Below are positions 3 through 58,863 of a DNA stretch of 64,000 bases, piece by piece. Origin of the DNA: a virus; IMG/VR virus record IMGVR_UViG_3300032236_000815, positions 24,585 to 88,584 of that record; one strand, written 5' to 3'. The stretch's first letter is position 1. Every line of letters starts with the position of its first letter. The notes beneath the pieces were generated by a model. The model did not search any database. It had not been told where the DNA came from and worked only from the letters and a program-made list of their open reading frames with translations. The translations under genes were made by a program, and so were the position numbers.

Positions 3-3000
3 GGTAGTTCATGGACAGCAGGTAACGCATTACCTAACACAAACTTCTTAGCATTAACATACGGTAACGGTGTTTATGTTGCAGTTGGTGGTACAACTAC
101 TACTCCAGCTATTGCATCAAGTACAGACGGTGTAACATGGGTTAACAGAACCGCAGTTGGTTCAGTGACTTATACATCGGTTGCATACGGCAACGGATAT
201 TTCATTGCAATTGCAAGCGGAAGTAACGTAACTGCTCTAAGTACAAACGGTGTTTCATGGTCGTTAGGCGGTGTATTGCCAAGTTCAACAACTTGGTCAA
301 GTATTACATACGGTAACGGACGTTTTGTTGCTATTGCAAGCAACGGTGTTGCGGTAGCTTACAGTTATAACCAAGGTACAACATGGTATTCAAGTACTAA
401 CGTTGGTAGCCCAGGTTTACCATATACACAAAACTGGACTAAAGTTCGTTACGGTGCAGGACAATTTATGGCGGTTGCCGCAAGTCCAAACGTAACATTA
501 ACTGCTACTGCCGCAAGTACTAACTTGATTACATTAAGCAGTACTGCTAACGTTAACGTTGGTAATACTTTAATTCCAACAAGTGTGACAGAAGCTACAA
601 CAGCTACAGCTACTACTCACGCAACAGCAACTTCAGCATCTGGAGCAATTATTACTAACGGTGTATTGACAGCTAGCAATAGTACAGGCACATTAACAAA
701 CGGTATGTTGTTGACAAGCTCTGGTACAATCGTAGCAGGTACATACATTCAAAGTACAAATACTGCATCATTTAACAGTATGATTAATACTACATTGATG
801 ACAGTGTTCAGTGGAACTGCGCCAAGTGTAGGTATGACAGTTACTGGTGCTGGTTATGCATCTGGTACATACGTAACTAACGTAAACGTTGCTACATTTA
901 CTGGATTTATCAGCAACGGTAACTCGGGCGTGGCTGGTACACAGCTAACAGCCGCAACTATAACATCTGGTACACTAAACACATTCCAGTTAATTACTGG
1001 CGGTACTGTAAGTGCTAACACTTATATTAGTGGTAATACACAGTTTAACACAAACAACGGTAGCTTAACTGGTAGCACACTAACATTAGGCACTGTATCT
1101 GGTTCAGTTGCTTTAGGTCAAGCAGTTGCAGGTACTGGTATTCCAACTGGTACATATATAACTGCGTTTGGTTCAGGCGGCGCAGGCGGTAACGGTACAT
1201 ATACTGTAGCAGGTCCTGGTATTCCAGCAGCCGCAACAGGCACAATTTCTGTAGTTGGTATTGTTTATACATTAAACAACAGCCAAGCAGTTGGTACAGG
1301 TGCAAGCCAAACATCGTTTACAGCAACTAGCTATAACGTAACTAACAGTCAATCGGTTGGTTCTGCCGCATCGCAAATTACATCAACTGGTACTAGCTAT
1401 GTATTAGCTGGCCCAGGTACTGCATCGACACAAACTCAAACATCTGCAACTATTACTGGTACTAACGATTTAGTAACTGTTGGTAGTACAGCAGGTATGA
1501 CAGTTGGCGAACCAATTGCGTTTACATACTTTACAATTAGTACAACGTTAACTGCTACAAACAGTTCAGGTAACCTGTTAACAGTTGCATCAACTAGCGG
1601 CTTTACAGTTGGCGGAAGTATTATATTCACAGCAGTAACACAAAGTGGTTTATTAACTGCAAGTGCAAGTACAGGTAACTTGTTAACATTGAGCAGTACT
1701 AGTGGTTTAGTTAACGGTGAGACAATTGTATTCACCAGCGTAACACAAGCTACTACATTAACAGCAACTACTCCAAGTGCATCAACATTTACTGGTTACA
1801 TTGCAGGTACAACATTGACTGTTGGTACTGTTGGTTCTGGTACGATTGCAATTGGTCAAGTATTAACTGGATCAACAACAGTTGCTGGTACTTACATTGT
1901 TGCTAACATCAGTGGTTCTGGTAACGGTTCTACATGGCAAGTAAGCGTAAGTCAAACAGTTGGTAGCTCAGGTTCACTACAAGCATTGACTGGTACAGGT
2001 AACTTGATTACATTGAACACATCAACTGGTATGGTTGTTGGTGAATCATTTGTAGTAGGTACAAACGTCGGTAACTTGTTAACATCAAGCACATACTACA
2101 TTACTAAGATTATTGGTAACCAAATTGCAGTTGGTACAAGTTCAGGCGCAACTAGCGACTTTACAGTTTCTAATACAACTGGACAAAGCGTATCTGTAAC
2201 TGCTGGTACAGTATTTGGCGGCATCACAAGTGGTACAACTTATTATGTAACAAGCATAAGTGGTAGCCAAATCACTATCAGTGCATCTTACTCTGGTGCT
2301 AACTTGACATTGACCAACGCCGCTGGAGCATGGACTTATGCATCAGGCGCCGCTTTTGGTGGTATTACAAGTGGTACAACATACTATATCTTAAGTATTC
2401 CAACACCAGGTACAAACGGTACAATTACTGTAAGTACAAGTTATGGTGGTAGCGTACAAGCTGTAACAAGTGCCAACGGTGCTTGGACAGCAGTTGAAGG
2501 TAGTGTGTTTGGTAACTTAGTATCAGGTACAACTTATTACATTAGCGAGGTTATTGGTAGCACACAAATTGCGCTTTCAACATCTTACGGAGCAACTACT
2601 AACTTTACACTAGCAAGCCAAAACGGTAGCTGGAGTACAACAGCTGGTAGTATATTAGGTAACTTAGTATCTGGTAACACATACTACATTACAAGTATTA
2701 GCGGTAACAACGTAACTGTAAGTACAAGTTTAGGCGGATCAACATTCAGCTTAATTAGCGATACAGGTGCATGGACTGCCGTAATTGGTAATGCGTATGC
2801 CGCTACAAGTTGGGACGGTATTAACTGGAGTACACAACTATTAGGCACAAGCAATAGTTGGAGTGCATTGACATACGGTAACCCAATCAGTGCTACTTTA
2901 GGCGCTCAACCAACTTGGGTAACATTAAGTAATGCGGCCGGTACAACTACCGCAGTAAGTACAAGAGCAGGTGCTACACCATTAGGCCGTGTAACTGCTA

Positions 3001-4247
3001 AGAGTGGTGTAATTACTGAAATCCGTATGATTGAACCAGGTAGCGGTTATGCAAAAGGTAACGTTTCTGCAACTACAATTACAACTAACGTGATTACAGT
3101 TGATGATACTACTAACTTACAAAACAATCAACCAGTTACATTTAATCAAAGTTCAGGTGGTATTGTAGCTGGTACAGTATACTATGTTCTATACGGTAGT
3201 ATTACAGTTAGTAGCTTCCAGATTACAACAGCCTCTGGTGGTACAACAGCAATATCGTTAACAACTAGTGCGCCAACTGGTATGATTTATCGTGCAGGTG
3301 CAATTGTCACACAGATTGATCCTAACAAGGTATTGACTGCGGCAATTAACCCACGTCAAGGTGACGGTGCATTAGGTAACCCAAGCTTCGGTAATAGAGG
3401 TACAGGTAACTCTACTGCTACAGCAAGTACATCAGGTGACGGATATGCTGATTTATTCCAAACTGGCGGATACTTAAACGTGGCTAATTTGTTTAGTTTA
3501 CCAACACCGGGATCAAACGTACAGTTTGCAAGTATTCCAGGTGTATGGTATAAACTGGTTACAGTTACAAACGTATTAGGTATTGCTGGCGCATACACAG
3601 CACAGATTCAAATTAATCCAAACATGAGTGCATTGTTGGCACCCCCACACAATGATATCATTACAACAAGATTAAAATACTCACAAGTACGTTTAACAGG
3701 ACATGACTTCTTGTATATTGGTACAGGTAACCAAGTACAGACGAATTATCCAAACGTAATTACAACTAATGCAATCCAAGCTAACCAAACTTACAGTTTA
3801 GGCGGTGGTCGTGTGTTCTACACCAGTACTGACCAAGACGGTAACTTTAACGTTGGTGGATTGTTTGGAGTTCAACAAGCAACTGGTACAGCTAGTTTGA
3901 ACGCTACAGCGTTTAACTTAGCAGGTTTACAATCATTGCAGTTGGGCGCAGTTAGTTTAGGTGTTGGTTCAGCTACAGTTACTCAATTCAGTACTGACCC
4001 ATACTTTACTGCTAACAGCGATAATATTGTTCCAACCCAAAAGGCTATTAAGTCTTACATTACCAGCCAAATTGGTGGCGGAGCAAGTACATTGAACGTA
4101 AATACTTTGACAGCGGGTGTAATTTACTTGAGTGGTAATACAATTACAACTACATCAGGCGGACAAATCATTGTATCGGCAAAAATGAACTTTACAGGTG
4201 GCGTAGACGGAAGTCCAGTGTCGCTTGCATACTTTATGACAAAATAA
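3..4247 (+). CDS. Large tail fibre/baseplate-type virion protein, 5'-truncated (frame is open from the window edge; 165 is not the real start)
   Basis: Thr/Gly/Ser-rich; propeller-like W.S..YGNG.FVA repeats and S.DG..W boxes; C-terminal SQVRLTGHDFL.IGTG...VFYTSTDQDGNF.VG block typical of T4-like aquatic phage structural proteins; frame 3 has no stop from base 3. Confidence 0.75.
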   Translation, partial: GSSWTAGNALPNTNFLALTYGNGVYVAVGGTTTTPAIASSTDGVTWVNRTAVGSVTYTSVAYGNGYFIAIASGSNVTALSTNGVSWSLGGVLPSSTTWSSITYGNGRFVAIASNGVAVAYSYNQGTTWYSSTNVGSPGLPYTQNWTKVRYGAGQFMAVAASPNVTLTATAASTNLITLSSTANVNVGNTLIPTSVTEATTATATTHATATSASGAIITNGVLTASNSTGTLTNGMLLTSSGTIVAGTYIQSTNTASFNSMINTTLMTVFSGTAPSVGMTVTGAGYASGTYVTNVNVATFTGFISNGNSGVAGTQLTAATITSGTLNTFQLITGGTVSANTYISGNTQFNTNNGSLTGSTLTLGTVSGSVALGQAVAGTGIPTGTYITAFGSGGAGGNGTYTVAGPGIPAAATGTISVVGIVYTLNNSQAVGTGASQTSFTATSYNVTNSQSVGSAASQITSTGTSYVLAGPGTASTQTQTSATITGTNDLVTVGSTAGMTVGEPIAFTYFTISTTLTATNSSGNLLTVASTSGFTVGGSIIFTAVTQSGLLTASASTGNLLTLSSTSGLVNGETIVFTSVTQATTLTATTPSASTFTGYIAGTTLTVGTVGSGTIAIGQVLTGSTTVAGTYIVANISGSGNGSTWQVSVSQTVGSSGSLQALTGTGNLITLNTSTGMVVGESFVVGTNVGNLLTSSTYYITKIIGNQIAVGTSSGATSDFTVSNTTGQSVSVTAGTVFGGITSGTTYYVTSISGSQITISASYSGANLTLTNAAGAWTYASGAAFGGITSGTTYYILSIPTPGTNGTITVSTSYGGSVQAVTSANGAWTAVEGSVFGNLVSGTTYYISEVIGSTQIALSTSYGATTNFTLASQNGSWSTTAGSILGNLVSGNTYYITSISGNNVTVSTSLGGSTFSLISDTGAWTAVIGNAYAATSWDGINWSTQLLGTSNSWSALTYGNPISATLGAQPTWVTLSNAAGTTTAVSTRAGATPLGRVTAKSGVITEIRMIEPGSGYAKGNVSATTITTNVITVDDTTNLQNNQPVTFNQSSGGIVAGTVYYVLYGSITVSSFQITTASGGTTAISLTTSAPTGMIYRAGAIVTQIDPNKVLTAAINPRQGDGALGNPSFGNRGTGNSTATASTSGDGYADLFQTGGYLNVANLFSLPTPGSNVQFASIPGVWYKLVTVTNVLGIAGAYTAQIQINPNMSALLAPPHNDIITTRLKYSQVRLTGHDFLYIGTGNQVQTNYPNVITTNAIQANQTYSLGGGRVFYTSTDQDGNFNVGGLFGVQQATGTASLNATAFNLAGLQSLQLGAVSLGVGSATVTQFSTDPYFTANSDNIVPTQKAIKSYITSQIGGGASTLNVNTLTAGVIYLSGNTITTTSGGQIIVSAKMNFTGGVDGSPVSLAYFMTK

Positions 4248-4259
4248 CGGAGAAATAAC

Positions 4260-4580
4260 ATGGCATCAGGACGAGTCGCATCGGTTGCACCAAACGCAAC
4301 ATCAATCACAACAATTTACCCAGTACCAACTGGGTACTATGGCATCTATAATGTTAGTATCACAAATACTAACACTACGCCAGTAACCATTCGTTTAGCA
4401 GTAGCCGCAGGCGCTACACCAAACGCTAACGAATACATCGAGTACAATGCAACTATTGTACCTAACGGTGTACTAGAGCGTACAGGTATTGTTGCTGCCG
4501 CTGGTACATACATTGTTGGTTATGCAAGTGCTTCACTTGTAAACTTTAATGTATGGGGCATTGAGACATCAACATCATAA
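4260..4580 (+). CDS. Small virion structural protein (fibre-associated)
   Basis: 106 aa beta-rich, GGAG RBS, sits between fibre genes. Confidence 0.55.
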   Translation: MASGRVASVAPNATSITTIYPVPTGYYGIYNVSITNTNTTPVTIRLAVAAGATPNANEYIEYNATIVPNGVLERTGIVAAAGTYIVGYASASLVNFNVWGIETSTS

Positions 4581-4592
4581 GAGAGAATTTAA

Positions 4593-5465
4593 ATGGCAAG
4601 ATATAATACCCAACTAGGTATGGCAACAAGTCCAACTACTGGACTTATACAGTACGTAACTAGTGCAACTACAATAACTACACCGTATCAAGGTCTGTAT
4701 ACAGAAATTGGATCAACTACTGCGGCAATATTTACTATTAACTTGCCAACGCCAGCGAGTTTCCCAGGAACTACGCAGACATTTTTTAATAACTCTGCTT
4801 ACGCAGTTACTTTATCTATTACTGGTGGTATTTTTACAGGTAGTATCGGCTCAGCTGGTACAAATTTTATTTTAAATCCAACTGCTACAGTTACAATATT
4901 TTCAGACGGTACAAACTATGTTTGTATGAGCGGTACTGGCGGCGCCCAAGCTGTAAGTACGTTGTCTGCTAGTTCAACTGTAAACTTGAGCCCATCTAAT
5001 GCTAACGTAACACTTAGCCCAACTGGTTCAGGACAAGTGTTTATTAGTCCAGCAACAACTGGTTCTATCAGTAACATGACATTTACTGCTGGCGGTTTAA
5101 CAACATTACAACAAACTACTGAAGTTCTTGCTACTATTGCAAGCCCAGGCGGCACAGCTACACTAAACTATAACACTACTGACATTTGGTATTTGACTGG
5201 TTTAAGTGCAAACTTTACAGCCGCATTTACTAACGTGCCAACAACATTGCTAAGAACTGTTACTATGACATTGATTTTAGTGCAAGGTGGTACAGCGTAT
5301 ATTCCAAACGCGGTAACAATTAACGGTACAAGTTATAGTATTACATGGCCAGCTGGTATTGTTCCAACTGGAACAGCTAACAGGGTTAACATTGCAACAT
5401 TCTTTATTGTCAATGCTACAGCCGCACCTAACTATGTGTTAGGACAAATCAGTGAATACGGTTAA
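4593..5465 (+). CDS. Tail fibre-like protein; C-terminal domain paralogous to 51917..52579
   Basis: Thr-rich; NVPTT..RTVT.TL.L.QGGT.YIPN...INGTSYSI.W..GI.P.G.AN shared with 51917..52579. Confidence 0.65.
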   Translation: MARYNTQLGMATSPTTGLIQYVTSATTITTPYQGLYTEIGSTTAAIFTINLPTPASFPGTTQTFFNNSAYAVTLSITGGIFTGSIGSAGTNFILNPTATVTIFSDGTNYVCMSGTGGAQAVSTLSASSTVNLSPSNANVTLSPTGSGQVFISPATTGSISNMTFTAGGLTTLQQTTEVLATIASPGGTATLNYNTTDIWYLTGLSANFTAAFTNVPTTLLRTVTMTLILVQGGTAYIPNAVTINGTSYSITWPAGIVPTGTANRVNIATFFIVNATAAPNYVLGQISEYG

Positions 5466-5487
5466 TCAATAATTTAGGAGAATAAGA

Positions 5488-7158
5488 ATGCCAATTACAA
5501 GTACCGTTGGAGGAACAGTTGAGTTAAAAGGACTTGGCGGCGCCCACCCAGGAGTTGCACCAGTAGATACTTCGGCTAGTACAGCCGCAGGCTCTATCGG
5601 AACTATGACAGTAACCGCAGGCGGCTGGGTAAGTTCAGGAACTACACCACCAGGCTATCCGTCAGGATATTATCCACTCAGCATTTCAAGTGTATCTGGA
5701 AGCCGTGTAGCATTTGATCCGTTTGGTCAAGGCGCTATCACTTATACACTTCCAAACGCACTTAGCGGTACTATAACATCTGTTAGTGGCGCAACTGTAA
5801 CCATCAGCGGATCTACATCCGGTATGGCTCAAGGTAGCGACTTTACAGTATATTTTTCAGGTGGTGGTACAAACGCTCAACAGTCTACATATGGTGGAGT
5901 ATGGCCAGGAACATGGTATGTTGCCAGTGTTGTTAGCGGAAACCAAGTTACACTAGCAACTACTTACGGTAATGCTATTGCAAATAGTCCAACTACATTC
6001 CAAAGTTATAACACTAGCTATACAGTAAGCGGTTTGAATTATGTTAGCGGAGCATTACCTAGCGGATTGTCGTTTAACTCAAGTACAGGAACTGTAAGCG
6101 GAGCCATTTCTATTAACTCAACTAGTAACCCAGGTTATAATAATGGAATGCTTTTAAACTATCCACCTAGCGGCGGCCTATACGACGGAAGAACTGTTCC
6201 AACAACCTCATACCAATTTAAAGTACGTGCTACTGATGCGTTAGGTATTAATCAAACAGATCGTCAATATAGTATTAACTTGAGTGTGCCATATGCATAT
6301 CGTCAAGTTATCACAACAACTTACTTGCAAGCTGGTTATGCAAACAGCTCATGTTGGCAAACTACTTGCCGTACAACAAACTCGACAGACACTACTATCG
6401 ACTTGGGTTCAAGTGGTTACCAGGAAGTTGCTCATAACTACCAGATGAGTGCTCACAACTTAACTCGTTCGTTCACATTTGGTGCAGGATCGGCTCACTG
6501 TGCCGCGGCAAGTAACGTTATTGCATTTAATATGCGTACTGAAACTGCTAATACTGCGGGTTATTCACGTGGTTATCCAGTAAGTCAAAATAACTGTTCT
6601 ACACTACGTCAAGAATATTACTATGCATGGTGTACAAGCCCAGCGGCAACTACAGTATATGAAATGAATTTGACAACCGAACAAGGTTATACTGCTCCTA
6701 CTTCATGCCCAGGCCCTAATGCATTAACTGGAAATAGCTGGGACGGTTATGGTGTTTGGATGAGTCAAAACTACAACATGACTTACTCTAATCGAACAGT
6801 TACCAGCCGTGGCGGTACTACTGTTACTGGTGATGCTCAAGGTAAAGTAATGGAAGGTAAGATTAACGCTTACGGTGGCCGTGAAGGTTGCCCAAGCACA
6901 AACTGGCGTAGAACTGTTCAAAGTACTAACACCAGTGTTGATGCGGCTGGCGCAAAACCTTACAACTCAGGCGAAGAAAACAACATGACTGGCCAAGATT
7001 GGGGATATTGTATCGGATTCTACGGACCTGCAGGACACGTTAATACATCATTTAAATTTATCTATGCTACAGAAGCAGGGTATGGAACTAATGCTAGTTT
7101 GGAAGCTAAAGGCGGACACGCAGGTAACAGTTCAGGAACCACATGTTGGCGAGATTAA
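5488..7158 (+). CDS. Tail fibre/adhesin with putative Ig-like domain and Cys-rich C-terminal repeat domain
   Basis: SGALPSGLSFNSSTGTVSG...YQFKVRATD Ig-like signature; Cys-rich C-terminal half. Confidence 0.6.
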   Translation: MPITSTVGGTVELKGLGGAHPGVAPVDTSASTAAGSIGTMTVTAGGWVSSGTTPPGYPSGYYPLSISSVSGSRVAFDPFGQGAITYTLPNALSGTITSVSGATVTISGSTSGMAQGSDFTVYFSGGGTNAQQSTYGGVWPGTWYVASVVSGNQVTLATTYGNAIANSPTTFQSYNTSYTVSGLNYVSGALPSGLSFNSSTGTVSGAISINSTSNPGYNNGMLLNYPPSGGLYDGRTVPTTSYQFKVRATDALGINQTDRQYSINLSVPYAYRQVITTTYLQAGYANSSCWQTTCRTTNSTDTTIDLGSSGYQEVAHNYQMSAHNLTRSFTFGAGSAHCAAASNVIAFNMRTETANTAGYSRGYPVSQNNCSTLRQEYYYAWCTSPAATTVYEMNLTTEQGYTAPTSCPGPNALTGNSWDGYGVWMSQNYNMTYSNRTVTSRGGTTVTGDAQGKVMEGKINAYGGREGCPSTNWRRTVQSTNTSVDAAGAKPYNSGEENNMTGQDWGYCIGFYGPAGHVNTSFKFIYATEAGYGTNASLEAKGGHAGNSSGTTCWRD

Positions 7159-7196
7159 CCTGCTAAATATTCAACAATTTTTAGCAAGAGGAATTT

Positions 7197-8060
7197 ATGA
7201 TAGATAGAATTAAACAATTTAATGATCGAAGTGTTGACGTTGATTTGCATTCAGATACTAGTATGATGTCTGATTCGGACAAACAGCATATTATTAAAGC
7301 GTTGAATAAAGAATGGACTAACCCAAAATTTAAAATGCGTTGGTTCGTTGGGCAAGCCCAGGTAACTATCTATGCAAAATATCGTCAATTCTTAATGGAA
7401 CTAAAAAGCCGCGAAGAAGGTATTGAAGATCTTGAGTATAAAATGGAACAATGGTCCATTGATATTGCTCGCCACGAGATGATTGCATCTGAAGCAGTTG
7501 ACGATTTAGACAAAAGAATGGCAAAACTTGAAATTAAAAAGTTAAGTCGTGATTTAAGTCGTAGTCGTCGAATTGTAGAAGGTTGGTATTTAGAGCGTCA
7601 ATTATATTGTGATTTAATTAACGAATTTTTGGCAAGCCCCGAAGCACTACTTCCCGATAATAGTGGTAGAACTTATGCAGATATCATTAATACAGATGAA
7701 GAAGATGTATACGAAGAATTGCTATGGACTCATAGACTAGCAAAGCAAGCCGCTTGTGATTTAATGTTTTACGGAAAGATCAATAGCGGTAACATGGATG
7801 CTATTCTTAGTATGCATCCAGACCAGCAAGCACAAACGTTTGCACTAGCAACAAATTTTAGTATGCAAGTTCAAAGCTATTTGCTAGAGTTACAAGATCA
7901 AGCACAAACACATGCTAGCCTAGGCAAACCATTTAACAACGGTGATCTAGCATTGCCCAGAGCATTTAACAGAGCTCCTCCAGCAGAAGACATTACTAAA
8001 ATAGATAATCCTCAGCAATCAACAGAAATTAAGGATATGTTAAATGTATATAATATTTGA
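7197..8060 (+). CDS. Hypothetical protein (coiled-coil; possible fibre assembly factor)
   Basis: GAGG RBS, TAAATA upstream; helical charged composition. Confidence 0.45.
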   Translation: MIDRIKQFNDRSVDVDLHSDTSMMSDSDKQHIIKALNKEWTNPKFKMRWFVGQAQVTIYAKYRQFLMELKSREEGIEDLEYKMEQWSIDIARHEMIASEAVDDLDKRMAKLEIKKLSRDLSRSRRIVEGWYLERQLYCDLINEFLASPEALLPDNSGRTYADIINTDEEDVYEELLWTHRLAKQAACDLMFYGKINSGNMDAILSMHPDQQAQTFALATNFSMQVQSYLLELQDQAQTHASLGKPFNNGDLALPRAFNRAPPAEDITKIDNPQQSTEIKDMLNVYNI

Positions 8061-15286: not shown

Positions 15287-16333
15287 ATGGAGTTTATAAC
15301 TTCGGTCCTGTTAAAGGACATTACATACTTGTGGATGATCTTCTTCATTATGATCACCGCTGGACTAGCTAAAGAGTACGCTCTATTTGCCCCAGCGTTT
15401 GCCTATGTTAGAAATACTTTCCGCAGTAACAAGTTCGTAGTTGTTATCCTAAGTGCGATTGGTGGTATTTTACCAATCGAAGGTCGAGTTACAGTCTCAG
15501 CAGGTTTGCTGGATACTGTAGCACCTAAAGAAGGTCCTGGTCGTGAGAAACTAGGCATTGTAGACTATCTAGCCAACCATCACTATTACATGTGGTCACC
15601 GTTAGAGAAAACTGTAATCCTACCTATCGCGGCATTTGGATTGACTTATGGTGCTTTCCTCGGTCTAGTTGCTCCGTTGCTAATCACTAGTTTGTTGTTT
15701 ATCAGCATCTACATCTGGACACAAGTCAAAGATGAAGAGCTAGTTATTACACCGGGAAACTTTAAATTGAGTGCTGTTCTACGTAACGTGCTTCCAATGT
15801 TTATTGCCCTCGGCGTTTACATTTGGGGCGGCGGCGAAGAGCATGTATTTCCAATTTTTGGTTTACTAACTTTATACTATGTAATCATCACACAACAATG
15901 GAACTACAAGAAATTGTTGGGCTATGTTCGTTGGGATGTACTAGTATGGGTAGGTGCAGTTATTATCTTAGGTAACTATTTCAAATCACATAACGGAGCA
16001 TTTCTAGAGCTAATCAAGAGCGTAGGGTTGAACCCTCATACTTTTGCTGGTATGCTAGCGATATCAGTTATTGGATTTGTCATTAGCTTCTTAATGGGTA
16101 GTTCAGGTAAGTTTATTGCTGTTGCTGTTTTAATGGCACAAGTATTTGGCGTAGAATATTTCTTATGGTTCTTTGCTATTGACTTTACTGGATATCTGTT
16201 AAGCCCTACGCATAAATGTGTTATGATTGGTAACCGTTATTTCGGCACACCAGTTGGCACTTATTATAAAGCCCTAGGTTTATGGGGCGCACTACTTCTG
16301 CTTGTAAGCGGAGTAGTAACATTTTTGATTTAA
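15287..16333 (+). CDS. Inner-membrane transporter, ion-transporter (IT) superfamily, DUF401-like
   Basis: About ten hydrophobic segments; IGGILP and GYLLSPTHKC...YF motifs. Confidence 0.7.
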   Translation: MEFITSVLLKDITYLWMIFFIMITAGLAKEYALFAPAFAYVRNTFRSNKFVVVILSAIGGILPIEGRVTVSAGLLDTVAPKEGPGREKLGIVDYLANHHYYMWSPLEKTVILPIAAFGLTYGAFLGLVAPLLITSLLFISIYIWTQVKDEELVITPGNFKLSAVLRNVLPMFIALGVYIWGGGEEHVFPIFGLLTLYYVIITQQWNYKKLLGYVRWDVLVWVGAVIILGNYFKSHNGAFLELIKSVGLNPHTFAGMLAISVIGFVISFLMGSSGKFIAVAVLMAQVFGVEYFLWFFAIDFTGYLLSPTHKCVMIGNRYFGTPVGTYYKALGLWGALLLLVSGVVTFLI

Positions 16334-54153: not shown

Positions 54154-57100
54154 ATGGCAAAGAGTCAACTTAGACAATACGTTTTTACACCAGGGAATGC
54201 CGGAGCAGGCACTGTAGAAGTACCGGGTAAAATCGACCTACAACAATTATTGATTATTACTAACACAACTAGTAATCAAATCATATACAACTTTGCAGAT
54301 CCTGTATATTCAGGAACAACTGTAACTTTTAATCGTGCAAACGATTCTAGTTTTCCTACAGCGTTAGACAACGCGGATGGTACAACTACGATTACATTGA
54401 GTGTTAGCACTTCTACTCAAAGTTCAACAGATAAGTTACAGATTTTTTACGAACAGCCATATCAATATGTACGTATTCCAGAAGTTGGCACTGATGCATT
54501 TGAACGCACTCGTGTTGCTCCTCCACAGTCTATGCTTGACGCTGACTTTGAATACGGACTACAGCCAACTAAGTGGTTAACTATTAGTCAACAGCGTGGA
54601 TATCCTTCCATTTATGAAATTCCAGGAACAGACATAGCAGTAACGGCTGTAACAACAGATGCTAGCTCAGGTGCAGGCGGCCTTTCTACAGCTGAATCTG
54701 TTATTACTGTAACCACTGGCTTAGCACACGGCTACTCCGTAGGTACTCCGTTTACAATCAAAGGTATGAACAGTGCCATCATAGGCTATGACCGTTCTGA
54801 AGGTTCTTTCATTGTATATCAAGTGTTAAGCTCGACACAGTTTACCTATATTGCCAAAGGTAAAGTTGGTTTTACAAGCGGCGACAACATTTGGACTGCA
54901 TTCGTACAATTACGTCAAGGCGGCTTCTATACAGGTTCTTCAATTAACGCAGTTATCAACACTACAGCATTAGCTACAAATAGTTCAGGTAACTTAGTTA
55001 CTGTTGGTACAACAGCTGGTATGACTGTCGGTAGCCCAGTTACATTAGGACAAGTAATTACTAACTGTATAGCAACAAGTAGCTCAGGTAATCAAATTAC
55101 GCTAGGAACTACGCTAGGTTTAGCAGTAGGTATGCCAATGGTATTTTCTGGATCTAGCTTTGGTGGTATCACTAGCGGAACAACATACTATGTACTAACT
55201 ATTGTTGATACCAAAACTATTACAATGAGTACTACACAAAACGGTAGTGTATTTGTTCCAACAACAGCACAGAACGGTAATATGAACGTTACTGCTGGCG
55301 CAAGTTTTGGCGGACTAGTAGCTAATAATAATACTGCTGGTAATACATATTATATTACTAGTATTCCAACACCAGGTACAAACGGTACAGTTACATTGAG
55401 TACTAACCTTCAATATACAACTACAATTACCAACACAAACAGTATCACTAACGGTGTTAAATTTGCAAACTATACTTACCAAGGTCAAACAGTTGGTGGA
55501 ACAACTAACATGACAGTGGGTGAATCAGTAGCTATTAGTGGTAGTACCATTGGTAACTTGGTAGCTGGTACATATTACATCTATCAGATTTTAGATAATA
55601 ACTATGCTATCTTAACTGCAACACAAGGTGGTGCACCATTTGTACAAACTACAGCCGCTGGTTCGATGAACGTTACTGTAGGTACAAACGTTACCTTAAC
55701 AACTGTGGCCGCTAACAGCGGATTCTTATCGTTCACAGCAGTTTGCCCTCCAACATTTACATTCTCTACTCCAGCTACAACTGCTGGTTTTACTGCATCA
55801 TTAAGCGGTAGTACATTGACTGTAACCAGCGTTGCTAGCGGTTCGTTAGCTGTTGGACAAGCTATTGCGTTGAGTACTGGTAATACTGTGCCAAGCGGTA
55901 CTGTAATTTTAGCTCAAGTTTCTGGTACTACCGGTCAAGCTGGTCAGTATACTGTAACTACAAGCACAGGTAGTATCAGCAGTAATGCTAACTTTATTTC
56001 AGTAGCTACACAAGCAACAATCACTGTGAACACTACTACTCCACACGGTTTAGTAGCAGGCGATACTATTAACGTAGTAGTTACATCTGACAACGGTACA
56101 AACAACCATTTACTTGCAAACGGTCCATTCTTTGTTGAATCTACCACAGCAAACACTGTCAACGGTCAGTCAGTTATTAACCAGTTTACATATACTGCAC
56201 GTGGTGTGGGTATATTAACTAGTGGTACAACTATCTTAGCTCAATTATATGCTCGTCCAGATAGCTATTATTCACACAGACCATTCGATGGCGGTGTACA
56301 ATTAGGAACAGGTTTGCCAAGCTATGGCTCACAAGCTATACGTATGAGCAAGAAGTATATTCGTTATCAATCTGGTAAAGGTATTAACTTTAACACTGGT
56401 TTGCTAATGGCTCCTAACTACTTTGTACGTAGTGTATATGCTAACGGTACTACAGTCGGTAGTACGGTAACTGTAGTAACCGATGACGTGGATCACGGTA
56501 TGCAAGTAGGTGCAACATTTACTCTAAGCGGTGTAACAACTAGCGGTTATAATGGTACTTACGTAGTTAGTGGTATTATTGACGAACGTACAATTCAATT
56601 TGTTTCTACAAACGTTTTAGGTTCAGCACAAGGTGCAATTATCAGCGATCCATGCTTGTTAAGTTTAGTATCATGGGGCGGCGCCGCAGTTCGTTCTGGA
56701 ACATACGATGAGCAAAACGGTGTGTTCTGGCAATATGACGGCCAAGTAATTAGTTGTGTACGCCGTTCTAGCACATTCCAGTTAGCTGGTACTATTACTG
56801 TTATTCAAGGTAGCGGACAAATTATTGGTCAGAATACTCGCTTTACTTCACAACTATATGTAGGTTGTAAGATTGTTATTCGTGGTATGAGCCATACAGT
56901 AACTCACGTTATCAGCGATACATTGATGTATGTTAACCCACAATGGCGTGGTGCTAACAGTGTATCAGGTATTAAGGCAACACGTACAATTGATTATGTT
57001 GTACCACAAAGTAAGTGGAACGTGGACCGTTGCGATGGTTCAAATGGCCCTTACAATCCAAGCGGATATCAGATTAACCCAAGTAAGATGCAGATGGTTG

Positions 57101-58863
57101 GCTTACAATGGACTTGGTATGGTGCTGGATTTATTGACTGGATGATTCGTGGTCCAGAAGGTAGATACATTACTGTACATCGTTTACGTAACAACAACTT
57201 GAACAACGAAGCTTGGATGCGAGCAGGTAACATGCCTGTACGTTTTGAAGTAAGTAACGAAGGTGGTGCTAATAATCTAGCACAAAACGTGCTAGTTGGT
57301 GAAACAAACACAATATATCTAAACGATGTAAGCAGTTTCCCAGCATCAGGTACTATAATGATTGATAACGAGTTTATCACTTACGGAAGTAAGAGTGCTA
57401 GTTTGAATACATTAAACTACCTAGCACGAGCTCAACCAATAGCACCGTGGGCAACTGGTGGATATCGTACATTCACAGCAGGTGCCGCGGCAGCTCACTC
57501 AGCAGGTACTGGTGTTGTTGTAATTGGACAAACAGCTAGTCCAGTCGTAAGTCACTGGGGTGCGGCGTTTGTACAAGACGGCGGATTTGACTCAGATCGT
57601 TCATACATTTTCAACTACAGTCAGCCTAACGTTAACATTTCAACTAAGAAGACTACAGCGTTTGCTGTGCGTCTAGCACCTAGCGTAAGTAACGCTCTTC
57701 CAGGAGATCTTGGACAGCGTGAACTTATTAACCGTGCGAGTTTCTTGCTACAACAGCTAGAATCTAGTGCGGGTACTGGTGGCGGTAACGCGGCCTTGGT
57801 TATTGAAGGTATTATTAACCCAAGTAATATGCCAACTCCAAGCAACATCAGCTTTGCTAGTTTGAACTCTATAGCCAACCCAACTGGACAGCCAAGTTTC
57901 AGTCAAGTTGCTACAGGATCAACCATGGTGTTTGCTGGCGCAGTCAACAACTACTTGATAGTACCTATTGCATTACCACTTGGTTCTACAACTATTCCGT
58001 TGACTCTAAACCCAGCTACACAAGCACCAGCAGTATCAGTGGCAGACGACATTTTCTTCCCAAGCACAACTGGTGCGTTGAACGGTTTAACTCGTGTGAG
58101 CACACTAGCAACTAGTTCTGCTACATTCACAAGTACTATCTCAACTAGTACAACTGCTAGTATCACAACTGGTTCTATTGCTGGTACTGTATTCACTGCT
58201 ACAACAGTCGGTTCAGGTACACTACAAGCTGGTATGGTTCTAAGCGGCGGCGGTATTGCTACTGGTACATATCTTGTTGCTCCAATCGCAGGCGGCACAG
58301 GTTCAGGATCTACTTGGACAGTAAGTATTAGCCAAACAACAACAGCAGGTTCAAGTACTGCTACATTGTATGCTCTAAGCACTACAATTGGTACTGGTAC
58401 TATCCTAGTTGGTAGTGCAGTAACCGGTGGTACAATTGCCGCTGGTACATACATTGCTAACCAAGTTAGTGGTACAACTGGTGGTACTGGTGTGTATGCG
58501 TTGATTAACATTGCAGGTAACACTCCAGCAAGTGGACAAAACCCAACAGGTTCTACCTACTACGGTGTAACTGTTAACCAAGGTGTAATTACCTTTGTTC
58601 CAAGCACAAGCACTGGTACAGTTATTAACATTAGTCGTAACACTTACGCACTACCTGGTGAAACTGTATTCTCGTACATTAACGCTCCAGCTAACAAGGA
58701 CGCATTGGACTTGACAGCATTTAAAGAATTGACCAATACACCAATCGGCGGACGCGGTTGCTATCCGAACGGTTGTGACGTATTATTTGTTAATGCTTAC
58801 ATTACACAAGGTTCACCAATTAACCAGAACTTAGTTCTACGTTGGGGTGAAGCTCAAGCGTAA
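54154..58863 (+). CDS. Large virion structural/fibre protein (1569 aa)
   Basis: DADFEYGLQ.TKW, YIRYQSGKG, W.WYGAG motifs; same repeat modules as the first gene. Confidence 0.75.
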   Translation: MAKSQLRQYVFTPGNAGAGTVEVPGKIDLQQLLIITNTTSNQIIYNFADPVYSGTTVTFNRANDSSFPTALDNADGTTTITLSVSTSTQSSTDKLQIFYEQPYQYVRIPEVGTDAFERTRVAPPQSMLDADFEYGLQPTKWLTISQQRGYPSIYEIPGTDIAVTAVTTDASSGAGGLSTAESVITVTTGLAHGYSVGTPFTIKGMNSAIIGYDRSEGSFIVYQVLSSTQFTYIAKGKVGFTSGDNIWTAFVQLRQGGFYTGSSINAVINTTALATNSSGNLVTVGTTAGMTVGSPVTLGQVITNCIATSSSGNQITLGTTLGLAVGMPMVFSGSSFGGITSGTTYYVLTIVDTKTITMSTTQNGSVFVPTTAQNGNMNVTAGASFGGLVANNNTAGNTYYITSIPTPGTNGTVTLSTNLQYTTTITNTNSITNGVKFANYTYQGQTVGGTTNMTVGESVAISGSTIGNLVAGTYYIYQILDNNYAILTATQGGAPFVQTTAAGSMNVTVGTNVTLTTVAANSGFLSFTAVCPPTFTFSTPATTAGFTASLSGSTLTVTSVASGSLAVGQAIALSTGNTVPSGTVILAQVSGTTGQAGQYTVTTSTGSISSNANFISVATQATITVNTTTPHGLVAGDTINVVVTSDNGTNNHLLANGPFFVESTTANTVNGQSVINQFTYTARGVGILTSGTTILAQLYARPDSYYSHRPFDGGVQLGTGLPSYGSQAIRMSKKYIRYQSGKGINFNTGLLMAPNYFVRSVYANGTTVGSTVTVVTDDVDHGMQVGATFTLSGVTTSGYNGTYVVSGIIDERTIQFVSTNVLGSAQGAIISDPCLLSLVSWGGAAVRSGTYDEQNGVFWQYDGQVISCVRRSSTFQLAGTITVIQGSGQIIGQNTRFTSQLYVGCKIVIRGMSHTVTHVISDTLMYVNPQWRGANSVSGIKATRTIDYVVPQSKWNVDRCDGSNGPYNPSGYQINPSKMQMVGLQWTWYGAGFIDWMIRGPEGRYITVHRLRNNNLNNEAWMRAGNMPVRFEVSNEGGANNLAQNVLVGETNTIYLNDVSSFPASGTIMIDNEFITYGSKSASLNTLNYLARAQPIAPWATGGYRTFTAGAAAAHSAGTGVVVIGQTASPVVSHWGAAFVQDGGFDSDRSYIFNYSQPNVNISTKKTTAFAVRLAPSVSNALPGDLGQRELINRASFLLQQLESSAGTGGGNAALVIEGIINPSNMPTPSNISFASLNSIANPTGQPSFSQVATGSTMVFAGAVNNYLIVPIALPLGSTTIPLTLNPATQAPAVSVADDIFFPSTTGALNGLTRVSTLATSSATFTSTISTSTTASITTGSIAGTVFTATTVGSGTLQAGMVLSGGGIATGTYLVAPIAGGTGSGSTWTVSISQTTTAGSSTATLYALSTTIGTGTILVGSAVTGGTIAAGTYIANQVSGTTGGTGVYALINIAGNTPASGQNPTGSTYYGVTVNQGVITFVPSTSTGTVINISRNTYALPGETVFSYINAPANKDALDLTAFKELTNTPIGGRGCYPNGCDVLFVNAYITQGSPINQNLVLRWGEAQA

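What the first reader, a model, noticed from the sequence alone, without database searches (positions are those of the whole stretch)
489..2789. Nested (matryoshka) domain architecture in the giant fibre protein
Seen: repeat type A occurs as four N-halves in a row (NL.T..ST.G..VG..I.F), one complete copy, then exactly four C-halves (FG....GTTYY...I....I..S...G......G.W). Repeat type B (F...I....LT.....G....G....G....GTYI) occurs as three N-halves, one complete copy, then three C-halves (Y.(V/L)..SQ), and this block is itself inserted inside an A copy, at the same site where a single B copy interrupts the innermost A. The whole insert appears to split one propeller blade (WTKVRYGAGQFMAVA ... 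YAATSWDGINWS). Inference: the chain goes out and returns, each domain being built from two distant segments, giving a branched stalk grown by recursive insertion rather than tandem duplication.
Basis: partly seen in the sequence, partly recalled or inferred. Interest (0 to 1): 0.78.

Follow-up and report, generated by a model that had tools for sequence, protein, structure and literature searches.

The report
Nested barrel domains in phage fibre
A giant tail-fibre protein of an uncultured marine giant phage carries small barrel domains inserted one inside another like Russian dolls, so the chain runs out along a rod and back again, an arrangement so far described mainly in cyanobacterial RNA polymerase.

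Summary
The window's first ORF is the last 1414 aa of a 4301-aa fibre protein. A profile built only from six contiguous type-A copies outside the region hits the region as N-half-only four times, once complete, then C-half-only four times. Type B gives three N-parts, one near-complete copy and short C-strands. The whole 777-aa block sits inside one Asp-box propeller blade.

- Two AlphaFold2 models contain barrels made of distant segments (A4n+A4c, A3n+A3c).
- A fragment-complementation prediction pairs the N-half array with the C-half array antiparallel (ipSAE 0.72; best control 0.00).
- A covariation score trained on contiguous copies favours the nested pairing.
- Homologues gain or lose matched halves, with depths of 2, 5, 7 and 13.

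The B nest is not resolved structurally. How layers are added is not shown.

The closest known case is the recursively nested Si3 insertion of cyanobacterial RNA polymerase, described at six levels. This is a different fold in a different setting, and a homologue reaches 13 levels. I rate it a new variant of a known kind.

The parts
3..4247 (+). C-terminal 1414 aa of the 4301-aa giant fibre gene; the gene starts 8659 bases upstream of the window, at G000:C1:15926.
   Evidence: phrog_9851 'tail fiber protein' matches residues 1220-1356 of the window part (E 6e-47). That part alone is shared with cyanophage and Pelagibacter phage tail fibres.
435..491 (+). First part of the split propeller blade (WTKVRYGAGQFMAVAASPN).
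   Evidence: An intact neighbouring blade has 10 aa where this one has 777.
492..590 (+). A1 N-half (outermost A barrel, first part).
   Evidence: profile positions 1-20/29 only.
591..638 (+). First strand of A2 (EATTATATTHATATSA), after which the B nest is inserted.
   Evidence: By analogy with the A5 first strand, which model 2 places in the A5 barrel (range 103..258).
639..1049 (+). B1, B2 and B3 N-parts (three B copies lacking their last strand).
   Evidence: profile 4-48, 2-49, 3-50 of 68; i-E 7.5e-5 to 4.4e-9.
1050..1241 (+). B4, the innermost, near-complete B copy.
   Evidence: profile 2-55 of 68, i-E 2e-11.
1242..1451 (+). Three short returning strands assigned to B3, B2 and B1 (YTLNNSQ, YNVTNSQ, YVLAGPG).
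   Evidence: 1 of 3 found by the C-strand profile; read by eye. In one search, P0011 has one contiguous B where this block sits.
1452..1739 (+). A2 (rest), A3 and A4 N-halves in a row.
   Evidence: The interface covers residues 346-441 of alignment A1 numbering.
1740..1784 (+). First strand of A5 (VTQATTLTATTPSAS).
   Evidence: a barrel match spans model-2 residues 103..258 with 75-76 aligned residues, i.e. this strand plus A5 with B looped out.
1785..1976 (+). Single complete B barrel inserted after the first strand of A5.
   Evidence: i-E 1.2e-27; ranges 454..526 and 115..187, Z 6-7 to domain-II-type barrels. pLDDT 80-91 in the 10-residue blocks.
1977..2183 (+). A5, innermost A barrel (remaining strands, contiguous).
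2184..2795 (+). A4, A3, A2 and A1 C-halves, in that order.
   Evidence: profile 27-66 only; pairing.
2796..2831 (+). Second part of the split blade with its Asp-box (YAATSWDGINWS).

Best explanation
The region is a recursively nested domain insertion. A 777-aa block is plugged into a loop of one Asp-box propeller blade of a 4301-aa phage fibre protein.

Five small beta-barrels of type A are each inserted into the loop between the third and fourth strand of the previous one. The chain therefore lays down the first strands of A1 to A5 on the way out and the remaining strands of A5 to A1 on the way back. Every neighbouring pair of barrels is joined by two chain crossings, and both ends of the insert meet in the blade.

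A second barrel type, B, is inserted after the first strand of A2 as its own four-deep nest. It is also inserted, as a single copy, after the first strand of A5.

Inferred, not shown: the result is a rod of about five barrels projecting from the propeller, with a side branch and a B barrel at the tip. The rod would extend or stiffen the reach of surface-exposed, possibly glycan-binding, modules. Its length would change in evolution by matched loss or gain of inner layers.
For: Sequence evidence:
- Profiles from contiguous copies split cleanly into N-only and C-only matches in mirror order. The same holds for B N-parts.

Structure models:
- AF2 model of the balanced sub-nest (406 aa, 14-row alignment): mean pLDDT 79.7, pTM 0.58.
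- Barrels in that model are built from distant segments: 67..307 (9n71_B, Z 8.3, rmsd 2.7, 74 aligned) and 31..357 (7anu_B Z 7.1; 4iw3_B Z 6.8). The range 103..258 (9jlf_E Z 8.2) has B looped out.
- The 806-aa model shows the same split ranges (406..645 Z 8.8; 371..696 Z 5.4-6.2).

Complementation prediction:
- N-array fragment against C-array fragment: ipSAE 0.72 (three runs 0.72, 0.76, 0.70), best of 3 controls 0.00.
- The mark was reached by 58 of 80 solved complexes and 2 of 110 mismatched pairs. These counts hold only roughly, because my own alignment was used.
- The runs agree in at least 91% of contacts, and the partner's pLDDT is at least 84.
- The lowest-error contacts are antiparallel: A4n with A4c, A3n with A3c, linker with linker.

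Covariation, independent of structure predictors:
- The pairing score was trained on 690 non-redundant contiguous copies.
- In 43 of 48 homologues with at least 4 split pairs, nested pairing has mean z 0.81-1.08 and is above the permutation mean in 84-93%. Reversed pairing has mean z -0.26 to -0.49.
- In P0005 (12 split pairs) z is 3.73, and 0 of 5000 permutations reach the nested score.

Homologues:
- P0030 lacks exactly A3n-A4n-B-A5-A4c-A3c, and P0011 has one contiguous B in place of the B nest.
- Nests of 7+7 halves occur in P0016 and P0018, and 13+13 in P0005.
- Inside the split blade, 21 of 33 proteins found by the regex have equal counts, and all 21 are properly nested.
Against: - All structural evidence is prediction. 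No coordinates were available to me, only aligned ranges and the contact list.
- The B nest is poorly modelled (pLDDT mostly under 50). Only 1 of its 3 returning strands is found by profile.
- The pairing of the outermost A1 halves rests on profiles and counts alone.
- Automatic counts are unequal by 1-3 in 12 of 33 split-blade intervals. Over whole proteins only 20 of 48 A strings are exactly balanced. I attribute this to weak N-half detection but did not curate each case.
- The covariation score for the window's own protein is not significant on its own (z 0.55; 6 of 24 permutations reach it). The homologues are not independent samples.
- Barrel matches at Z about 8 are in the range the tool calls common for models without a clear match.
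- Function and location on the virion are untested.
Confidence: 0.85

Rival explanations
1. Domain swapping between subunits. The fibre is an oligomer, and the N-halves of one chain complete barrels with the C-halves of a neighbouring chain, so the nest is an intertwined multi-chain rod rather than a single-chain hairpin.
For: Many phage fibres are trimers with intertwined chains (recalled knowledge, no call). The complementation prediction shows only that N-array and C-array fragments fit each other, not that they belong to one chain.
Against: The innermost copy is contiguous and the linkers between halves are about 10 aa, which fits intrachain closure. Monomer AF2 models close the barrels within one chain with pLDDT about 80. 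The insert sits in a loop of a propeller blade, a fold that is normally a single chain (recalled).
Confidence: 0.08
2. Two independent tandem arrays. The N-type units and the C-type units are separate small domains or a continuous beta-solenoid, and their likeness to the halves of the contiguous A domain is only ancestry.
For: The N-type and C-type units are each regular tandem repeats with their own linkers (consensus sequences).
Against: N-units are only about 25-35 aa. Their numbers track each other across depths 2, 5, 7 and 13. Both predictors pair them. Covariation learned on contiguous copies favours the mirror pairing.
Confidence: 0.04
3. Assembly or annotation artefact, or degenerating low-complexity repeats without a defined fold.
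For: The sequence is rich in T, S and G and is repetitive. The record is a metagenomic fragment (CheckV completeness 24).
Against: There is one uninterrupted 4301-codon frame. The search returned 48 proteins of 2679-5441 aa, the window's own included; the 47 others come from separate contigs and sources, and the closest ones have the same layout. The repeats are diverged, so collapse or expansion by an assembler is unlikely (pairwise identities 0.25-0.74 in P0005).
Confidence: 0.03

Closest known systems
Si3 insertion of cyanobacterial RNA polymerase beta' (RpoC2): nested sandwich-barrel hybrid motifs
   Same: Small beta domains of one family are inserted recursively into one another inside a loop of a host domain. 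The result is an elongated arm in which several domains are built from distant chain segments. [quoted passage not shown] PMC13114784 (passages read) describes a six-level recursive insertion in Prochlorococcus RpoC2. Si3 chains were the top Foldseek rows for the 806-aa model, with 575-651 aligned columns.
   Different: Those Foldseek rows are not significant (E 0.011-0.046, TM about 0.06), and they are not among the rows listed for the A-only model. The best structural matches of A and B are EF-Tu-domain-2-like, FCCH-like and phage plug-in barrels, not SBHMs. The host is a virion fibre propeller, not an enzyme's trigger loop. Two barrel families are nested in one another. The depth reaches 13 in a homologue.
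Plug-in beta-barrel domains of phage structural proteins (tail tube of Acinetobacter phage Mystique 9n71_B; phage FCWL1 head-to-tail protein 9jlf_E; P22 coat I-domain 2m5s)
   Same: They have the same kind of small barrel, and they are the best VIA-align matches: Z 8.3-8.8, 8.2-8.4 and 6.0, with 73-76 aligned residues. These domains also occur on virion proteins.
   Different: The matches are to stretches of about 80 residues within one chain; nothing in the calls shows these domains nested in copies of themselves. Z about 8 is within the range the tool calls common. No sequence similarity to any solved structure was found.
Tail fibre proteins of T4-like cyanophages and Pelagibacter phage Mosig (S-SSM7, S-CAM1, P-SSM5)
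   Same: They share the C-terminal module of about 140 aa (43-52% identity in the 15 rows listed, E down to 7e-32; phrog_9851). They also share the marine T4-like setting.
   Different: Nothing in 50,697 phage records matches the nested region at E<=1e-5. All 31 matching records cover only about 10% of the query.
Out-and-back needle of T4 gp37-type long tail fibre tips
   Same: The chain runs to a distal tip and returns, so both ends lie at the base (recalled knowledge, no call).
   Different: That needle is a trimeric intertwined beta structure, not a series of discrete barrels each completed by a returning segment. It was not tested here.

Membership tests
Recursively nested same-family domain insertion (architecture class exemplified by RNAP Si3) | The halves of one domain family are separated in sequence, with N-parts first and C-parts afterwards in mirror order. 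| tested here: met
   four N-only matches, one complete copy, four C-only matches; the window's own protein string is ([[[((()))).
Recursively nested same-family domain insertion (architecture class exemplified by RNAP Si3) | The separated parts complete one another in three dimensions. | tested here: met
   Predictions only. AF2 barrel ranges 67..307, 31..357, 103..258 and 406..645, 371..696. Complementation ipSAE 0.72 against 0.00 for the best of 3 controls, with antiparallel contacts. Covariation.
Recursively nested same-family domain insertion (architecture class exemplified by RNAP Si3) | Layers are gained or lost as matched pairs among relatives. | tested here: met
   P0030 and P0011. 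Depths 7 and 13. In one search, 21 of 33 split-blade intervals are balanced, and the remaining 12 are off by 1-3 in automatic calls.
SBHM (sandwich-barrel hybrid motif) fold, homology to Si3 | Significant structural or sequence match to SBHM domains. | tested here: inconclusive
   Foldseek gives E 0.011-0.046 with TM about 0.06 to 8gzh_Z, 8emb and 9dvs. No Si3 chain is among the rows listed by the VIA-align wide searches or by Foldseek on model 2.
E1_FCCH (PF16190) | A Pfam match above the gathering score. | tested here: not met
   Pfam scan of the 1414-aa window part gave no family at E<=1 except RVP at 0.11. The resemblance is structural only: 4p22_B Z 7.3-8.1, and a viral cluster annotated E1_FCCH at cosine 0.90.
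phrog_9851 tail fiber protein | A profile match. | tested here: met
   E 6e-47 over residues 1220-1356 of the window part, profile positions 943-1078 of 1092. This covers the C-terminal module only, not the nest.
BNR / Asp-box beta-propeller (host domain) | Repeated blades, each ending in an S-x-D-x-G-x-x-W box. | tested here: inconclusive
   Blade and Asp-box motifs are read directly in the sequence. There is no Pfam BNR match. The propeller itself was not modelled.

The most novel reading that the evidence does not exclude
This fibre family builds rods by a principle not described for virion proteins. One barrel family is inserted into itself again and again, five deep here and 13 deep in a relative. 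That is about twice the six levels highlighted for cyanobacterial RNA polymerase. Every joint of the rod is therefore double-stranded, both chain ends stay in the host propeller, and rod length evolves by matched indels. If so, these are the deepest self-nested proteins known, and they offer a natural system for asking how such recursion arises and folds.
Probability: 0.5. Interest if true: 0.78.

Novelty: new variant of a known kind. Interest (0 to 1): 0.64.

Why it matters
Nested insertion of a domain into copies of itself is rare. In the papers I could read it is showcased essentially by one case, cyanobacterial RNA polymerase Si3 at six levels.

A second, unrelated instance has now turned up: a different fold, on a virion protein, with two interleaved barrel families and depths from 2 to 13 among relatives. 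This shows that the architecture is a repeatable evolutionary solution. It lets a protein grow a long projection out of a loop without moving the chain ends.

Four consequences follow:
- Protein evolution gains a graded natural series for asking how matched halves are added.
- Folding studies gain an extreme case of non-local contact order.
- Phage biology gains a candidate new way to set the reach and stiffness of receptor-binding appendages.
- Protein designers gain a template for double-linked rods.

Tried and rejected
Mirror-tree test. I correlated pairwise identities among N-halves with those among C-halves. In P0005 r was 0.61 for nested pairing (1 of 5000 permutations reach it) but also 0.50 for the reversed mapping (0.6%). 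In five other proteins neither mapping was consistently significant. The test does not discriminate, and it does not show how layers are added.

Length test for matched B strands. I compared the number of consecutive B N-parts with the length of the following segment. Over 165 runs the correlation was r 0.08, too noisy because runs are interrupted in many homologues. Only the clean cases are suggestive: 1 copy gives about 17 aa, 2 copies 33 aa, 4 copies 84-90 aa, 6 copies 111 aa.

First covariation run. It permuted halves across different nests of a protein, which could inflate the signal. The first within-chain version had too strict an enclosure rule and found only 7 chains, with mixed z values. 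One search, with the corrected rule, is the result I rely on.

PDB sequence searches with the A and B profiles gave nothing significant (best E 0.44 and 0.57). Foldseek against the PDB gave no match at E<=0.001 for either model. Pfam gave nothing for the window part.

Literature. Three searches found no paper describing nested domains in phage fibres:
- nested domain / tail fiber / jumbo phage;
- recursive insertion / nested insertion / domain-within-domain / matryoshka / bacteriophage / beta-barrel;
- discontinuous domain / tail fiber / domain insertion / AlphaFold / giant.
The nesting-depth distribution of PMC13114784 (its Figure 2a and any tables) could hold deeper cases that I could not see.

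Wider family. Among 145 further representative proteins carrying the A module, the smaller of the longest N-run and longest C-run was 0 in 26, 1 in 85, 2 in 33 and 4 in 1. Deep nests are therefore not a general property of the module. Several proteins show long C-runs with few N-halves detected (for example 11 C and 1 N in P0075). I did not resolve these.

Full report
WHAT IS THERE. The window opens inside a long gene. Frame +3 is open from base 3 to the stop at 4247. The window is G000:C1:24585-88584 of an 88,584-base virus record with a CheckV completeness of 24. In that record the frame continues upstream to an ATG at 15926, giving a 4301-aa protein. Numbering conversions: full-length residue = window-part residue + 2887, and alignment A1 residue = full-length residue - 3026.

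The setting is a fibre gene cluster:
- The C-terminal 137 aa match phrog_9851 'tail fiber protein' (E 6e-47).
- The gene upstream is a 2651-aa ORF of the same phrog (3e-135), and two of the small ORFs just downstream match tail-fibre phrogs.
- Among 50,697 phage records, only the C-terminal module of about 140 aa finds relatives. These are T4-like cyanophages and Pelagibacter phage Mosig, at 43-52% identity in the 15 rows listed. Nothing matches the nested region.

THE OBSERVATION. I built a profile from six contiguous type-A copies that lie outside the finding's region. Inside the region it matched with its N-terminal third only at residues 3055, 3372 and 3405. At 3441-3483 it matched over profile 2-50, which is not cleanly N-only. 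It matched completely at 3550-3614, and with its C-terminal part only at 3670, 3721 and 3772 plus the match at 3602-3663.

I then made split N and C profiles from 192 contiguous A copies, and B profiles from 110 contiguous B copies, all taken from homologues. With these the layout is ([[[((()))): five A N-halves, including a clean one at 3442-3466, and five A C-halves.

For type B, a profile seeded on the single complete copy finds three copies that stop at profile position 48-50 of 68. It also finds one that reaches position 55, and the complete copy. The returning B strands are short. One of three is found by profile, two of three carry Y.(V/L)..SQ, and the third resembles the last strand of the innermost copy.

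The block interrupts a propeller blade. The neighbouring blade has 10 aa between its YG.G.F.A strand and its Asp-box, whereas this one has 777 aa.

DO THE HALVES PAIR?

First model. An AF2 model of 806 aa (15-row alignment A1) had mean pLDDT 61 and pTM 0.39. The A nest scored 60-91 and the B nest mostly under 50. The best match (9n71_B, Z 8.8, rmsd 2.6) aligns 74 residues spread over model residues 406..645, which is A4's N-half plus A4's C-half. Other rows span 371..696, which is A3's two halves. The single B aligns as a contiguous barrel at 454..526.

Second model. An AF2 model of the balanced sub-nest A2-A4 + B + A5 (406 aa, 14-row alignment A4) reached mean pLDDT 79.7 and pTM 0.58. Its barrel matches were:
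- 67..307, corresponding to A4;
- 31..357, corresponding to A3;
- 115..187, corresponding to B;
- 103..258, corresponding to A5 together with the strand that precedes B.

The last match shows that the 'linker' T(Q/E)xTT.TAT is the first strand of the next barrel. It also shows that B is inserted after that strand. The same site hosts the B nest in A2.

Complementation prediction. I asked a different predictor whether the three N-halves (A1 residues 340-450) and the three C-halves (592-745), given as separate chains, fit together.
- The score was ipSAE 0.72 (runs 0.72, 0.76, 0.70), and the best of 3 controls scored 0.00.
- The mark was reached by 58 of 80 solved complexes and 2 of 110 mismatched pairs. 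These counts hold only roughly, since my own alignment was used.
- The runs agree in at least 91% of contacts, and the partner's pLDDT is at least 84.
- The model supports binding; it does not show it.
- The lowest-error contacts are 387-389 with 667-670 and 397-403 with 651-657 (A3n with A3c). They also include 422 with 618 and 436-437 with 608-610 (A4n with A4c), and 377 with 689 (linker with linker).

A TEST THAT DOES NOT USE STRUCTURE PREDICTORS. From 748 contiguous A copies (690 after removing pairs at 80% identity or more) I took the N-column/C-column pairs with the highest corrected mutual information. I used their log-odds tables to score every N-half against every C-half within a nest. 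The split halves were not in the training set.

Within single nests, 43 of 48 homologues have at least 4 split pairs. In these the nested pairing lies above the permutation mean in 84, 88 and 93% of cases (10, 20 and 40 column pairs; mean z 0.81, 0.83, 1.08). The reversed pairing lies below the mean (mean z -0.49, -0.26, -0.40). In P0005, with 12 split pairs, z is 3.73 and none of 5000 permutations reaches the nested score.

Two limits apply. The homologues are related, so these are not 43 independent trials. For the window's own protein alone the score is not significant (z 0.55; 6 of 24 permutations).

HOMOLOGUES. A search with the region returned 48 proteins of 2679-5441 aa, the window's own included. 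Aligned to the window's segment, P0030 lacks exactly A3n-A4n-B-A5-A4c-A3c, so its A2 is contiguous. P0011 has one contiguous B where the window has the B nest.

Other members have deeper nests: 7 N-halves then 7 C-halves in P0016 and P0018. P0005 has 13 N-halves (residues 818-1267) directly followed by 13 C-halves (1268-1892).

By automatic calls, 20 of 48 whole-protein A strings are exactly balanced, and the rest are off by 1-3. Inside the split blade, which my regular expression finds in 33 of 48 proteins, 21 have equal counts and all 21 are properly nested:
- 5+5 in 10 proteins;
- 6+6 in 8 proteins;
- 7+7, 2+2 and 10+10 in one protein each.
The other 12 are off by 1-3. I did not curate these by hand.

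The A module itself is widespread. It hits 1758 representative proteins at E<=0.001, 280 at E<=1e-10 and 37 at E<=1e-30, out of 1.84 billion. In 145 further representatives, however, tandem complete copies are the rule, and only one protein has a nest of depth 4. P0049 is an almost purely tandem array. Both architectures therefore exist for one module, and the deep nest is a speciality of this fibre's propeller insert.

WHAT THE BARRELS ARE. No Pfam family matches, and no solved structure matches by sequence. By structure:
- A resembles plug-in barrels of phage tail-tube and head-to-tail proteins, the FCCH barrel of E1 enzymes and domain 2 of EF-Tu (Z 6-8.8).
- B resembles domain II of translation GTPases and a protein of Arthrobacter phage Bridgette (8eci_2: Z 6.2, rmsd 1.8, 33% identity over 58 residues).
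- A language-model look-up placed the B+A5 segment next to a viral cluster annotated E1_FCCH (cosine 0.90, a lead only).
The tool notes that Z about 8 is common for models without a clear match, so I claim only a common small-barrel fold.

HOW IT PROBABLY WORKS. Shown by prediction and sequence statistics: a single chain lays down the first strands of successive barrels on the way out and completes them in reverse order on the way back. Both ends of the insert are thereby returned to the blade.

Inferred: five barrels in series form a rod standing on the propeller. Each joint is crossed twice by the chain, which should make the rod stiffer than beads on a single string. The B nest forms a side branch at the second barrel, and a B barrel sits beside the tip. 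Such an insert can be lengthened without disturbing the host fold, which would explain why depth varies among relatives. A role in reach or in host-surface binding is plausible for a fibre, but I did not test it.

COMPARISON WITH WHAT IS KNOWN. The top Foldseek rows for the large model were the Si3 insertion of cyanobacterial RNA polymerase. They were not significant (E 0.011-0.046, TM about 0.06) but had 575-651 aligned columns.

[quoted passage not shown] A 2026 survey of domain insertions over 2.7 million classified domains presents the six-level nest of Prochlorococcus RpoC2 as its example of extreme recursion (PMC13114784, passages read).

The phage case is the same kind of architecture. 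It differs in four ways: it has another fold, it sits on a virion protein, it interleaves two barrel families, and a homologue reaches 13 levels. Three literature searches found nothing on nested domains in phage fibres.

WHAT REMAINS OPEN:
- the structure of the B nest;
- the pairing of the outermost A1 halves, which rests on profiles and counts only;
- intrachain closure versus swapping between subunits;
- the mutational route by which layers are added (the mirror-tree test was not discriminating);
- the function.

I confirmed in part that A and B modules occur in three further ORFs of the record.

VERDICT. This is a new variant of a known but rare architecture, of real interest to protein evolution and to the structural biology of phage fibres.

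Noticed in passing
L007:7943-15895 (G000:C1:7943-15895, upstream of the window): The neighbouring 2651-aa fibre gene (phrog_9851, E 3e-135) carries another nest style. One A N-half at residue 1546 and one C-half at 1908 enclose four complete tandem A copies, giving the string (()()()()).
   Followed up: partly
window 54154-58860 (G000:C1:78738-83444): A further long ORF carries A and B modules, including a two-deep A nest, string ())[[. DNA of the nest's C-halves (window 2355-2437) is 82-83% identical to two short stretches in this gene.
   Followed up: partly
full-length protein residues about 2690-2930 (upstream of the window; L006): An earlier blade of the same propeller (WVDVVYGGG ... KFVTIASG) also appears to be split. 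Its insert is a different one, made of repeats with G.G/NGSGY(T/S)S.P motifs that look like Ig-like domains. I read this by eye in the translation only.
   Followed up: no
full-length protein N-terminus (residues about 1-420; L006): Repeated W..G..Y..GD.V.Y.G..Y.C...H units are present. The collection's precomputed Pfam label for this protein and most homologues is PF02839 (CBM_5_12, carbohydrate binding), seen.
   Followed up: no
P0049 (2945 aa) and P0050-P0058 (homologues and representatives): These proteins consist of long runs of A copies, mostly tandem complete copies: from about 12 to about 30 N-halves and 13 to 33 C-halves called, with up to 34 matched stretches. They are the tandem counterpart of the nested form.
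   Followed up: partly
P0075, P0078, P0094, P0060 (representatives): These proteins show long runs of A C-halves with almost no N-halves detected (for example 11 C and 1 N). They may be nests with divergent N-halves or a different arrangement.
   Followed up: no
window 4260-8060: Four ORFs lie directly after the giant gene. The 106-aa and 290-aa ORFs match tail-fibre phrogs (11338, 9017). The 556-aa and 287-aa ORFs match phrogs of unknown function (1417, 1409).
   Followed up: partly
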